DNA of 64,000 nt, taken from positions 47,678,001 to 47,742,000 of the forward strand of contig NW_026889750.1 in the NCBI RefSeq assembly GCF_033153115.1, in the 5' to 3' direction. The notes under the pieces were generated by a model that saw only the letters and a program-made list of their open reading frames with translations, was not told the DNA's origin and made no database searches. Within the stretch, counting starts at the first letter, position 1. Each line of letters begins with the position of its first letter. The position numbers were made by a program, and so were the translations under genes. The DNA is from Saccostrea echinata (taxonomy: Eukaryota). This document shows positions 27,801-34,063 of this stretch, in pieces.

Positions 27801-28749
27801 AGTATGTTTTCAAGAGGAGGATGTGTAACATCCCTGCACCACAGTTAATTGGACAAGATCAAATTCAGTGGATTTTAAAGTGTACAATTCTTGTCCATAA
27901 CATAATTTTTACAATAAAATAACTTCCAAGGATCATATTTGCCGGAATGTTGGTTTTGATCATAGAATATGTTATATGATTCTGATGAAAGGTCATTTAT
28001 ACAGGGTCAAGGTCACAGTTCAGAGAAGTGGCAAATTTTGAAGACCTCAGAAATGCAAAATTCTAAAAGACAGAGCTTTTTATTGGAAGAGTATTAAGAG
28101 GTCATATTTGACATAAGGTGAATCCGTATGTCATGATTCTATGTCATAGTTAATTGCATAAGGTCAACCAACTGAAAAGTGAATGTTCTTTAAGCCATGA
28201 TATTTTGATGCTTGGACTGTGGATGGTCTTAATATTCGGACTCACACAAAAAAGGCATGTTACAACCTTCAACTAACTATTATAATTCTATATTGCCGTC
28301 ATATTGTATTGTCATATTGCAAACCTTGTATTTACTGCCACCTGGTAAATTAAAAAATTACAAAATGACATTGCTTGAAGATTCAGGCCATTGGAATTCT
28401 TTTTAAAATTTTTATTTTTATTGTGGCGATAATTGTATACATTTACAGAGTGTGACCCTCTGAATTTATTGTCATCTTGTCAAGCTGATCATGGCACTAA
28501 ATCATACTGCAATAGTGGTTTATCGAGTTTTCTCAGTATTTAATGCCCTGTTCACACGGAGAGTTTAATTCGAATTAAACGTAAGTTACTGCGAATTAAA
28601 TTTGATCCGCGTTCACACAATTGCATATTACCTAGCGCATAGGGGGCTTTTTGTTCTAGCACATAAGCGATAAAGCGGAAGTAGGTTCAACACCGGACAA
28701 ACAAGCTTGACACAGTTCATTGTTTTCACGTGTTCTGCGACGTATAATA

Positions 28750-30736
28750 ATGCCCGTAAAACATTGCTGTTATGGCGATTGTAATAGCGACTCGAGATAT
28801 ATCGGACGGAAGTCAAACATGGATGGTGTAAAGTTTATTCCCTTCCCGAAACCGAAAACGCAGCTTGAAAAATGTCAACGTTGGGTCAGGCTGTGCGGAA
28901 GGAAATACTTCACTGTTGAGAGCATTCGGAAAGAGACCTATATTTGCTCAAAGCACTTCGTCGGAGGAAATGGGCCTTCGGATTCACATCCAGACCCGCT
29001 ACCAGCAGTAAGTACAGAATTTGAGAGAAATTTGCTGTCGGCAAAGAAAAAACGAAAACCACCAACCTCAAGACCGTCACCTAAGAAGCGCCCTAGAAAG
29101 TGTTTGATTAATGACGAGGACGAATCTCAAGACAGCGCTGATTCATGCATTGAATCATTCATTTTAGAGACCGTTTCAAATGAGCATGATTATACCTGCT
29201 TAACTTCCAGTAGCACTAGTGTTGAACATGGACATGAAATATTTGAATCTACAAGTTATGTTCAGGCACCTGAGGTTGAGGAGATTTGGTTTGATGCAGC
29301 CAGTGAAGTTCCATGTCTAGCAGGTAACATTTAAATATACAATAAGATGACAAATTTTTTTCTCAACATATTTCGAAATAAGTGTAAATAAATTTTTTTT
29401 TTAATGATATTATAGGGGAAGAAGAAGTTACCACCACAACTTCTACTGATGCTCTTGTTCAGACAACATGTGTTTCAATGTCGGATGTTGGAACCCAGAC
29501 ATGTGTGCATTTCCAACATATTCACAAATATGCTGACGAGGAATTGATGGACAGAAACCAAATGAGTAGAAAGTTGTTTCTGTCATCAGTACTGCAGGAT
29601 AGCAACAGCTGCAAATTTTACACAGGTACATGTATGTGCCACTGCATGTTTTAAAATTAAGGAAAATAGCACAAAATTTGGGTGCATATAAATTATGATC
29701 ACATGCAAGTTTTTTTCTTTTAAATTCAATTACAGGCTTAAATCTGTCCATCTTCCTGTTCTTATTTCAATGGATTAGACCAAAAGCAGAAAAGCTGAAC
29801 TACTGGAGGGGACAGGATACAACAGATTTCAAAGGAGTGAGTCCCCCCCCCCCCTCTTAAAAAATCGATTTAATTATGCTTTTCCATACGTTATAAGTAA
29901 CTATAAATGTATTTCAATTTATATAAAAATATAAGTACTTGGTATTTTTTATTCTATTTAATCCAATTTTGTAGGCTCGGAAAGCTGGTCCAAAGAGGAA
30001 ACTTTCACTGAGAGAAGAATTTGTGATCACTTTGGTTCGTCTTAAACGTGGGTTAGATGTAGAAGTGTTGGGTGATTTAGTTGGTATTCATCCATCGAGT
30101 ATCAGTCGGATTTTCACAACATGGATAAATTTTTTGTATCTGGAGTTGAATTTTTTAATTTCATGGCCAAATAAAGAGCAGATAACAGCTAACTTACCAA
30201 AAGCATTCAAATATTTCCCAAAGACCAGATCAATTATAGACTGTACAGAATTTTTTATTCAGAAACCAAGTTTACCATCCTCGCAGAGAGTAACCTGGTC
30301 TAATTATAAACACCACAATACCCTGAAGGCACTTATCTCCATTTCTCCCACAGGATCATTTACTTTCATTTCTAAACTTTTCACTGGTAGTATTTCAGAC
30401 CGACGTATTGTTGAGGAAAGTGGTTATCTTGAATATTTAGAACATGGAGATGATATTATGGCTGACCGTGGATTTTTAATACGAGATCTCTTAGCCAGAA
30501 GATCATGTACTCTGAATATACCGCCTTACTCTATGGGTAGACAGTTGAGCAGTAGAGCAGTGACAAAGACAAGACGGATTGCAAGTGCCCGGATTCATGT
30601 GGAGCGTGCCATTGGAAGGTTAAAAACATTTAAAATTTTACAAGGAACTATGCCTTTAAGACTACATCCTTTATTTGATCAAGTTTTGGGTGTTTGTGCC
30701 TGTATTTGCAATTTAGATTCAAAGTTAGTCAAATGA
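28750..30736 (+). CDS. THAP-HTH-DDE (DDE_Tnp_4/Harbinger-type) transposase, 4 exons, ~548 aa
   Basis: Exons 28750-29323, 29416-29625, 29736-29836, 29975-30736 join in frame (1647 nt). THAP: MPVKHCCYGDC...FPKPK...W...C...ICSKHF...P. HTH: LVRLKRGLDVEVLGDLVGIHPSSISRIF. Catalytic motifs: IIDCTE, IMADRGF, RIHVERAIG. Confidence 0.93.
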
Positions 30737-31063
30737 AATGTAAAATCAATCTGAAGCATGTTTAGTAATTATAAAATCAACATGATTTAATGATCATATA
30801 ATTTATGAAATATGTACAATTGTATTGATCAACTCTTAAGTAATCTTTATATTTCATTATTTCATACATTCATGTATAATTGCAAATGAATTAATGCAAG
30901 CAGAGTTCAACTGTTAAGTCTATCATCAATTCAATCTTACATTTTAAAGTATATAATTATTTGCTCAAATACCAGGTATCTGACAATATAATAAATGAAA
31001 AACTGAAAAATTATGTATTAAGATGAAAAATATATAAAATAATATACAAGGAAAATATATTTG

Positions 31064-32058: not shown

Positions 32059-32146
<88 letters not shown>

Positions 32147-33105
32147 GATACCTCTTGTAATTTAAGGCCAAATTCCCTCTTTTCTTGATCTTGCATTGTT
32201 TGTCGTTTGTCCAATGGCCTTGGGTCAAACAAATCAATGTGGGGTTTCCCTGGTACATGTTGCTCTTCTTCACAAACATACCTGGCTTTCGTAACAGTAA
32301 GATGTCTTACTGGCAAGGAGATGTCATGCTTACGAGCTCTTTTTTTCCACTGGTTTTCCCCATCAGTGCATGACTTGGCCTGAAATGCCTCCAACTCATA
32401 AAGAGCTGCAGCTAGGTGTCTGCATGCCCCATCTGACCTACAAAATTAATGTATAATATTATAAATAGAATTCATTAAGTTTATCATAATTTTAATATTA
32501 GTTTAATACATAAGTATGAGAACTCCAAATATATGTATATTAACTTACCCTCCCAAACACTCACAATGCCCTGTGATAACATCACCATCTTCTTTATCAA
32601 GTGAAAACCACAATGAATAAAAATCTTTATTGAGATATGTTTTATCTCTCTGTGTTGGTTTCACTTTAGCTTTGAAAAGACAAATTTTATCAGTTTCCTG
32701 AAGCGGGTTAAACAACAGACTCTCTACATGTCCGTCATAAAATAATCGGTAGTCCTCAAAGGATTTGTAACCCTTCAGTTTTCGTCCATCGTAATCAGAT
32801 TTGTTAAATATTAAATAATTAAAAACATCTATGAGTCCGAAATCTGGAATATGCGCAAAATCTGACGTATACCCATCCATTTTTAAAGGATCTTCATTTG
32901 GAAGGCCGGCTTTCTTCAGTTTTGATTGTATGTCATTATAAACAGAATCTCTACGAAAATCTGGGTCAACAGGTAAATCCAGCTGTTTAACAGCGATTGC
33001 GATCTCCCTCAAGGTGCGTTTGTTATAGCCCGACACCGTAACGCCCCTTGCTCGCAAATAATCTTGCAACTCAGGTAAACGACAGGTATTTAAACACAGT
33101 GACAT
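31064..33105 (-). CDS. SAP-like + SWIM zinc finger + YqaJ (lambda-exonuclease-like) protein, 3 exons, ~573 aa
   Basis: Exons 33105-32549, 32437-32152, 31942-31064 join in frame (1722 nt). The N-terminal LPELQDYLRARGVTVSGYNK is SAP-like. The SWIM motif CECLGGSDGACRHLAAALY is assembled across intron 1. YqaJ motifs: TQGQ..W...R...LTASNF, WGREKE, GCSVDG, EIKCPY, YYAQIQGQL. Confidence 0.9.
32063..32146. repeat. (TA)n microsatellite inside intron 2 of the YqaJ gene
   Basis: About 40 AT dinucleotides; this explains the poly-YI ORFs in the track. Confidence 0.98.
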
Positions 33106-34063
33106 TTCAATCGATTAGTATGTTCTGTCAAGCGAAACCACGTTTGTTTGTCCGGTGGAACTCTTCTGTGTTTTAAGAACGATAACTCTAAATGCTTGTT
33201 CAATGCAAGGGAAAGATAATTGGCAAACGGATTAGTAAATTAATGCGAAGTAAAATGATGCGAATTAAACTAATGCGAATTAAATTGCGTTCACACGACA
33301 GCTAATGCGAAGTAAACCTAATGCGAATTAAAATTTTATTTATGGCATTAGTTTAATTCGCATCATTTTACTTCGCATTAATTTACTGCGAATTAAACTC
33401 TCCGTGTGAACAGGGCATAAGGTTCATTGATTCTCTGATAAAAAAGACAACTCTTACTGGAGTAAATGACTATTATTCCTTTATAAAATTTTCAAAAGGC
33501 AATTTCTGTCAAAGTTTGCCCCGCAAGGTATGTTGAAATTATGTATATTCTAATTATAAATTTGATTTCTTTGGAAAATTATTAGAGCTATTTAAAGCAA
33601 ATTTTTATTTGAGTGAAATTGAGAGATGATGAACCTTAACTTCAACAAAGAAAAATAAAATGGAGCACTCGGTCTTCCTTCATTCCTATTTGGCTCCAGC
33701 TTTCGCATTTGAACACTGATGTAGTAGTGGTCGCGATCTTGGTATATCTTAAATCGTTTTAAACCACTGTATATAACATTACCATACAAAGATTTTATTC
33801 AAAATATAAAATAATTATACAAGTATATACAGTTGTACTTTATACGGTATTTAATAAATACACTTTTGATATACATGTACTTATTTCTAATCTACAAAAG
33901 TCAATGTTGATAGACACTGTCTGTTTGATTTTTTGTACAGGTAACAATTAATGTACAAAATAATACAGAGTATAATTGTTTATCTCTGGATAACTGGCCC
34001 AACACCTCAAAGATCCCTGTCGTTTACTCTCTATCGTTGTTTCTGTCCAGAGTCCCTCGCCTT

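What the first reader, a model, noticed from the sequence alone, without database searches (positions are those of the whole stretch)
28545..33416. Intact, probably recently active two-gene ISL2EU transposon with a SAP-SWIM-YqaJ accessory nuclease
Seen: perfect 28-bp TIRs, AT TSD, and both spliced genes open with all splice sites, the DDE triad and the nuclease motifs intact. Established: ISL2EU elements pair a THAP-DDE transposase with a YqaJ/lambda-exonuclease-like protein, whose role in transposition is, to my knowledge, unresolved. Here the accessory protein also has a SAP-like N-terminus and a SWIM finger visible only after splicing, and the usual (A)SPDG motif reads CSVDG. A clean copy is a good substrate for testing what a phage-recombination-type exonuclease does in eukaryotic cut-and-paste transposition.
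Basis: partly seen in the sequence, partly recalled or inferred. Interest (0 to 1): 0.7.

Follow-up and report, generated by a model that had tools for sequence, protein, structure and literature searches.

The report
Transposon genes inside another transposon's ends
Two intact genes of a known jumping-gene type (ISL2EU) sit here with their own tips clipped off, wrapped in the ends of an unrelated, abundant mini-transposon, so this copy likely cannot jump by itself but could still supply its enzymes or be carried as cargo.

Summary
The genes are as described; the ends are misread. Both spliced frames are open (548 and 573 aa), and the three transposase introns are spliced in contigs of three studies. 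But two other copies of this family end in AAT|AGCTT…GGACT|ATT, the ISL2EU target. The window lacks the first 5 and last 2 of those bases. Its perfect inverted repeats are pieces of a 538-bp MITE (614 exact matches) whose duplication is TWA, not AT (29 of 34 copies, shuffle mean 15). A Harbinger transposase element shares one MITE end. So this is a single-copy chimera: an ISL2EU body in Harbinger-type ends, likely made during break repair. It is the only copy found with both genes intact; the near-identical copy has native ends but broken genes. SAP-SWIM-YqaJ and CSVDG are common in relatives; lambda exonuclease itself reads CSPDG. The scan noted SWIM-YqaJ ISL2EU elements before on other DNA of this genome (e1-9991720). 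The nuclease's role remains inferred.

The parts
28541..28543 (.). Left target duplication TAA (Harbinger-type TWA)
28544..28618 (-). MITE end: terminal T plus MITE positions 536 to 463; 29-bp TIR at 28544-28572
   Evidence: 100% to MITE copy L014 over 74 bp
28619..33231 (.). ISL2EU body, lacking the first 5 and last 2 bases of the native element
   Evidence: comparison with copies on C29 and C18
28691..28704 (+). 14-bp motif upstream of the transposase start, inverted copy at 33144-33157; candidate transposase or promoter site (inferred)
28750..29323 (+). Transposase exon 1 (THAP domain)
   Evidence: splice joint
29416..29625 (+). Transposase exon 2
29736..29836 (+). Transposase exon 3
29975..30736 (+). 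Transposase exon 4 (HTH, DDE: D384, D459, E505)
31064..31942 (-). Accessory gene exon 3: YqaJ / lambda-exonuclease domain (R367, E419, D458, E475, K477)
32063..32146 (.). (TA)n tract inside accessory intron 2
32152..32437 (-). Accessory gene exon 2 (second half of SWIM finger, linker)
   Evidence: homologue alignment; splice not shown by a joint
32549..33105 (-). Accessory gene exon 1 (SAP-like, beta-sheet, first half of SWIM finger)
33144..33157 (-). Inverted copy of the 14-bp motif, upstream of the accessory start
33232..33233 (.). Two filler bases where the native element has its last two bases
33234..33341 (+). MITE positions 30-136, inverted relative to the outer end (one extra base)
   Evidence: 99% to L014
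33342..33344 (.). Three filler bases; junction unique in the assembly
33345..33417 (-). MITE end: positions 72 to 1 plus terminal base; 29-bp TIR at 33389-33417
   Evidence: 100% to L014 over 72 bp
33418..33420 (.). Right target duplication TAA

Best explanation
This is a single-copy chimera: the intact two-gene body of a young ISL2EU transposon, clipped of 5 and 2 terminal bases, sits inside the ends of an unrelated MITE with Harbinger-type TWA duplications, and was likely patched in during repair of a break. Shown: structure, clipped ends, MITE origin of the TIRs, TWA duplication, open frames. Inferred origin (about 55%): a MITE excised or broke; gap repair re-copied 74 bp of one end and 72 bp of the other, switched template to copy positions 136 to 30 backwards, aborted, and was joined to an excised ISL2EU molecule with nibbled tips. 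Inferred state: its own transposase likely cannot cut it out, it could act in trans on the native-ended but gene-broken sister copy, and it would move only as cargo of a Harbinger transposase. Inferred job of the accessory protein (about 40%): a 5'-to-3' exonuclease, tethered by SAP and SWIM, that resects the donor site after excision and so favours copying the element back from the sister chromatid.
For: Two unlinked copies share ends unlike the window's, AAT|AGCTTAATTGC...GGACT|ATT, and match the window only from base 75 to about 4687. 10 of 10 ISL2EU copies with both ends defined, from 5 families, read AAT|A...T|ATT, the A|AT|T target of PMC4482050. The older copy (6.8% substitutions) has the same ends, so they are ancestral. 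The window's outer pieces match a MITE at 99-100%; its 28-mer occurs 614 times. MITE duplication: 29 of 34 copies have identical flanking 3-mers, shuffle mean 15.0, 0 of 100,000 shuffles as high; one copy reads TTG/TTG, which an AT duplication cannot give. A DDE element on C32 begins with the MITE's first ~128 bases, and its C23 sister shares the same subterminal-to-body junction; its transposase is 21% identical to the window's and lies across a 100/100 branch. A contig of another organism stops matching at 33231 and runs on 93 unlike bases. Filler bases and an inverted duplication at the junctions resemble the Goblin MITE model in PMC3814204. Nuclease: hits lambda exonuclease by sequence (9e-6) and fold (homologue model pLDDT 87; Foldseek 1e-7; Z 17.8 and 17.4), with lambda R28, E85, D119, E129, K131 aligned to kept residues.
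Against: No read or contig listed spans a chimeric junction, and no empty allele was found, so the order of events is unproven and an assembly error is not formally excluded. Matching TAA on both sides is weak proof of one insertion, as the duplication is nearly always TAA or TTA. Complete MITEs also lie 300-500 bp off both sides of another ISL2EU copy, which offers a two-MITE route. The Harbinger partner was found with one end only, in two damaged copies, with no Myb domain detected. Transcripts come from other haplotypes. No result here tests the nuclease's activity or role.
Confidence: 0.75

Rival explanations
1. Same chimera, other route: the ISL2EU inserted normally into a MITE or a nested MITE pair, and later deletions (perhaps after abortive cuts at its own ends) removed both inner junctions.
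For: This MITE often takes insertions, of itself and of other elements. The bases after MITE position 69 could be the first four of a nested MITE's TIR (read).
Against: Ordinary nested insertions seen here keep both MITE halves nearly whole (3 loci). It needs two or three deletions, two of them ending within 5 and 2 bases of the element's tips, in a copy only 0.29% from its sister.
Confidence: 0.25
2. Two independent MITEs landed on either side of a resident ISL2EU, and deletions fused them to it; the outer TAA match is chance.
For: MITE clusters flank another ISL2EU copy on both sides. The TAA match and the one-of-each-end arrangement would each arise about half the time.
Against: Needs two deletions that both stop just inside the element's tips; does not explain the inverted duplication.
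Confidence: 0.1
3. One reading: the 28-bp repeats are the element's own TIRs, the duplication is AT, and this is the autonomous parent of the MITE.
For: The repeat is perfect and AT stands on both sides; length 4.87 kb fits ISL2EU (PMC4482050).
Against: Two other copies have different, shared ends of the family-wide type; the MITE duplicates TWA; a Harbinger-type element carries the MITE end; the junctions carry filler bases and one is unique.
Confidence: 0.03
4. The chimera is an assembly artefact joining a repeat to a MITE.
For: No laid contig spans the junctions.
Against: It lies in a 53-Mb contig, has private substitutions and filler bases found in neither parent, and TAA on both sides.
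Confidence: 0.04
5. Rival for the accessory protein: it works at the transposon ends, as a Harbinger-ORF1-like partner that positions the transposase and trims the excised ends, not at the donor site.
For: Harbinger needs a second protein that binds the ends and the transposase (passages of PMC2836001). SAP and SWIM could tether it (own knowledge). The clipped tips here could be its footprint.
Against: The transposase has its own THAP and HTH domains; 10 of 10 native copies have exact ends and clean AT duplications.
Confidence: 0.35

Closest known systems
ISL2EU group of the PHIS superfamily (PMC4482050; PMC4122938; PMC9179366), e.g. ISL2EU-10_CGi, -11_CGi, -15_CGi listed in Table S2 of PMC4482050
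   Same: THAP-HTH-DDE transposase of 548 aa plus YqaJ protein of 573 aa; DDE spacing fits the PHIS signature; native copy 4,585 bp with A|AT|T target
   Different: This copy has lost its tips and carries foreign ends with a TAA duplication. Native ends begin AG, not the usual GG, and are weakly inverted (6 of 11 bases). No sequence comparison with the named families was possible.
PIF/Harbinger elements and Tourist-like MITEs (PMC4482050; PMC2836001)
   Same: Outer ends: 29-bp TIR, TWA duplication, repeated subterminal motif, a DDE element sharing one end
   Different: The cargo is the whole gene pair of another PHIS group; the first base is T rather than the usual A or G; no Myb partner was confirmed.
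Goblin MITE of Aedes aegypti, born by abortive gap repair with template switching (PMC3814204, passages)
   Same: Inverted duplication of subterminal sequence and filler bases at junctions
   Different: Goblin is a deletion product of its own parent; here 4.6 kb from a different transposon group was taken in.
Lambda exonuclease, LHK-Exo and herpes/baculovirus alkaline nucleases (PDB 1avq, 3slp, 3syy, 2w45)
   Same: Fold and catalytic residues of the C-terminal domain
   Different: Adds SAP-like and SWIM domains (SWIM region Z 9.7 to ZSWIM8); oligomer state and substrate untested.
'Wings-clipped' P-element helper (recalled, from no call)
   Same: Intact transposase gene with a damaged terminus, able to act only in trans
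   Different: That one is engineered; here both tips are lost naturally and foreign ends are added.

Membership tests
ISL2EU | ORF1 with THAP, HTH and DDE | tested here: met
   Pfam
ISL2EU | ORF2 with YqaJ exonuclease domain | tested here: met
   Pfam 1e-18
ISL2EU | PHIS catalytic signature D(19-29)K(29)D(18-40)D(11-19)P(18-28)R(3)E (PMC4122938) | tested here: met
   counted on the translation: D384, K407, D437, D459, P478, R501, E505; gaps 22, 29, 21, 18, 22, 3
ISL2EU | AT duplication in an A|AT|T target: the family's native copies | tested here: met
   C29 and C18 copies; no empty site checked, so AT against a no-duplication reading rests on PMC4482050
ISL2EU | AT duplication at own ends: the window copy | tested here: not met
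   own tips lost; outer duplication is TAA
ISL2EU | TIR of 6-259 bp, usually starting GG | tested here: inconclusive
   native ends start AG and agree at 6 of 11 bases; 4 other families here start AG or AC
ISL2EU | Transposase falls in the ISL2EU clade | tested here: inconclusive
   groups with 9 YqaJ-paired transposases of this genome apart from 20 Harbinger-type ones, 100/100; no named reference elements in the tree
PIF/Harbinger (outer ends) | 3-bp TWA duplication | tested here: met
   29 of 34 identical 3-mers, 28 of them TAA or TTA
PIF/Harbinger (outer ends) | Autonomous partner with DDE transposase sharing the ends | tested here: inconclusive
   one end shared, other end not found within about 20 kb
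PIF/Harbinger (outer ends) | Second ORF with Myb/SANT domain | tested here: inconclusive
   only a 138-aa piece of a converging ORF, no Myb hit
PIF/Harbinger (outer ends) | First TIR base usually A or G | tested here: not met
   T in 34 of 34 copies; the paper says 'usually'
Lambda-exonuclease family | Fold and PD-(D/E)xK catalytic residues | tested here: met
   (fold on homologue P0005, 40% identical)
Lambda-exonuclease family | 5'-to-3' exonuclease activity, ring-shaped trimer | not testable with these tools
   needs biochemistry

The most novel reading that the evidence does not exclude
End-swapping between transposon groups caught in the act: a complete, working ISL2EU gene pair now rides on Harbinger ends and has been, or can be, moved as one unit by Harbinger transposase, founding a hybrid element, while it drives its gene-broken native-ended sister in trans.
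Probability: 0.15. Interest if true: 0.7.

Novelty: new variant of a known kind. Interest (0 to 1): 0.45.

Why it matters
It shows a route by which a transposon's whole enzyme kit can end up inside another group's ends, the raw step for reshuffling ends and genes between families. It is also a trap: perfect repeats plus an apparent duplication give the wrong ends, so an assay built on this copy's ends would likely fail. The corrected anatomy makes the open question about the ISL2EU nuclease testable: intact genes from this copy, native ends from the sister copy. As a single copy with no sign of spread, its importance so far is modest.

Tried and rejected
Uniqueness of SAP-SWIM and CSVDG: rejected. 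A SWIM-like pattern is in 29 of 41 long relatives; of 175 relatives, 118 gave a motif match, 18 CSVD, 14 CSPD, 56 ASPD. AT duplication for the MITE: rejected. Purifying selection on this copy: 3 of 4 window-derived coding changes are silent against 0 of 3 for the sister; too few to count. Empty site: the left flank search found only a 60-70 bp repeat away from the junction. Long TIR-bounded stretches L033-L037 hold other insertions, with no match to either protein. 30 short Harbinger loci showed no MITE end; 2 of 60 longer ones did. Runs X1, X2, X6, X10 list no joint for the accessory introns and none across the chimeric junctions; their tables were cut, so this is no evidence of absence. The single-sequence model of exon 1 was poor (pLDDT 40) and was not used. 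The transposase-accessory complex job gave no model and no verdict. Divergence figures and 7 of 34 were spoilt by mixed orientation; the other 27 are 1.7-9.7% from the majority. In the tree, 5 of 34 loci gave no usable frame and were left out. Look-ups of earlier findings by sequence and words were empty.
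Full report
Observation. The sequence at 28545-33416 has the perfect 28-bp inverted repeat and AT on each side, and both genes splice to open frames of 548 and 573 aa with five GT-AG introns. Pfam gives THAP, HTH_Tnp_4 and DDE_Tnp_4 for the first, YqaJ and a sub-threshold SAP for the second. The three transposase introns are skipped in contigs from 3 of the 4 runs laid, of three studies (the tool only guesses that two are RNA and labels the third DNA, but all three are spliced; in X1 intron 3 shows with a one-base variant). 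The accessory introns are supported by homologues, whose SWIM motif runs across intron 1, and by a contig that starts at 32547 with 10 unaligned bases, but by no listed joint.

The ends are not the element's own. A search of the genome with the whole element (40 of 987 candidates scored) found a near-complete sister on C29 and an older, deleted copy on C18. Both match only from base 75 onward and stop near base 4687. Beyond those points they agree with each other and not with the window: AAT|AGCTTAATTGC at the left and GGACT|ATT at the right, in unrelated flanks. The window lacks the first 5 and last 2 of these bases. The native left end occurs at 2 places only. Of 7 pairs from other ISL2EU-type families, 4 had both ends inside the fetched DNA; with the 2 native copies, 10 of 10 read AAT|A...T|ATT, the A|AT|T target given in PMC4482050. 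A contig from another organism matches up to 33231, the native end position, and continues with 93 unlike bases.

What the ends are. The pieces are 99-100% identical to MITE copies, and the inner junction occurs once in the assembly. The 28-mer has 614 exact matches. From 39 loci I recovered 34 distinct copies with both ends. All have T outside the left G and A outside the right C; the next three bases are identical left and right in 29 of 34 (16 TTA, 12 TAA, 1 TTG), against a shuffle mean of 15.0 and 0 of 100,000 shuffles as high. So the TIR is 29 bp and the duplication is TWA, the PIF/Harbinger mark in PMC4482050; the window reads TAA on both sides. The 'AT' is the TIR's last base plus part of the duplication. 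Among 60 Harbinger-type transposase loci fetched with 4-kb flanks, 2 carry MITE-like ends. They are copies of one element (97% over 2.6 kb); on C32 it begins with the TIR and about 128 bases of the MITE's left end, interrupted by a 1-kb insertion, and the C23 copy shares the subterminal-to-body junction. Its transposase is 21% identical to the window's and sits across a fully supported branch in a tree of 30 rows from this genome, labelled by how I found them and without named references. Both copies are damaged, the far end was not found, and no Myb domain was detected, so it is a candidate partner only.

Age and state. Window and C29 copies differ by 13 substitutions in 4,514 bases. The C29 copy has a broken acceptor in transposase intron 3 and a 7-bp deletion that shifts the accessory frame, so among the copies found the window's alone has both genes intact, and the C29 copy alone is full length with native ends. 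Spliced contigs carry C at 29450, T at 30283 and (X1) an extra A at 31005, as C29 does and the window does not, yet lack C29's own changes at 28906 and 30644. They come from a third haplotype, so the family is likely expressed in other individuals, but this copy is not shown to be. A contig begins at 28656, inside the body, so the promoter region probably survived the clipping (inference).

How it likely arose. Truncation of both MITE ends, an inverted duplication of subterminal sequence and filler bases are what abortive gap repair with template switching leaves, as argued for the Goblin MITE in PMC3814204, which also notes capture of foreign sequence by this route. That the cargo starts and stops within 5 and 2 bases of the ISL2EU tips points to an excised molecule as donor. 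The TAA match alone is weak, complete MITEs flank another ISL2EU copy on both sides, and no empty allele was found. Terminal bases are generally needed for cutting by DDE transposases (own knowledge), so the copy is likely immobile on its own, a possible helper for the C29 copy, and possible cargo for Harbinger.

The accessory protein. SAP-SWIM-YqaJ is the family norm: oyster, mussel and snail proteins show it, as does an intronless ISL2EU partner in this genome (SAP weak, SWIM pattern read by eye). A SWIM-like pattern is in 29 of 41 relatives of 450 aa or more; CSVD is in 18 of 118 with a motif match. Lambda exonuclease reads CSPDG, and its R28, E85, D119, E129 and K131 align with R367, E419, D458, E475 and K477 (their roles are from my own knowledge). 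A model of homologue P0005 (40% identical; pLDDT 87) matches lambda exonuclease and LHK-Exo, viral alkaline nucleases and, in residues 83-198, ZSWIM8 (Z 9.7). I read it as an active 5'-to-3' exonuclease. Exact ends and clean duplications in 10 of 10 native copies argue against routine chewing of ends or target, so I favour resection of the donor site, steering repair to the sister chromatid and restoring the element (40%), over an end-binding partner role (35%). Neither was tested.

Literature. I read parts 1-3 of 4 of PMC4482050, 18 rows of its Table S2 and a passage of its second supplement; passages only of PMC4122938, PMC9179366, PMC12730594, PMC2836001 and PMC3814204. PMC4482050 says the second ORF's function is unknown; its Table S2 rows list YqaJ without SAP or SWIM. 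Eight searches, seen as listings, showed no paper on the SWIM domain of these proteins or on an ISL2EU body in Harbinger ends. Repbase reports, most subscription journals and preprint supplements were not searchable and may hold either. An earlier, unreviewed note of this scan describes two SWIM-YqaJ ISL2EU elements with ACT termini elsewhere in this genome; it agrees with the native ends and the shared architecture, and its binding prediction was not tested here.

Verdict. New variant of a known kind; interest 0.45.

Noticed in passing
window 29008-29167: One X1 contig (depth 4.7, 30 bases on the short side) skips 160 bases GT..AG inside transposase exon 1. This would shift the frame after residue 86 and leave a THAP-only product, a possible repressor form.
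   Followed up: no
L003-L007, L009, L010 (C36, C5): Seven internal fragments of this family, about 4% substituted where measured, share one left breakpoint and the same flank, so one truncated copy was amplified inside a larger repeat.
   Followed up: partly
L013, L017, L026, L027, L028, L161, L170: The MITE often inserts into the subterminal repeats of its own copies, building nested clusters.
   Followed up: partly
L110 (C9:28228397-28237397): Another ISL2EU copy has complete MITEs about 525 and 340 bp beyond its ends on both sides.
   Followed up: partly
L095-L114: At least a dozen ISL2EU-type families are in this genome, several with copies about 99% identical; the ends seen start AG, AC or AA rather than GG. 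L114 holds intronless genes, a simpler assay substrate.
   Followed up: partly
window 28309-28372: A 60-70 bp piece of a dispersed repeat lies 170 bp left of the element; many of its copies stand as inverted pairs.
   Followed up: no
window 5937-6578: A minisatellite gives long repetitive open frames on both strands.
   Followed up: no
window 53144-53620: A 158-aa open frame on the plus strand looks like a host exon.
   Followed up: no
L222 5895-6431 (C23): A 179-aa frame with a homeodomain-like stretch, judged by eye, lies about 15 kb from the Harbinger element.
   Followed up: no
protein P0291: A 781-aa protein carries both DDE_Tnp_4 and YqaJ families, a possible fusion or read-through of the two ISL2EU genes.
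   Followed up: no
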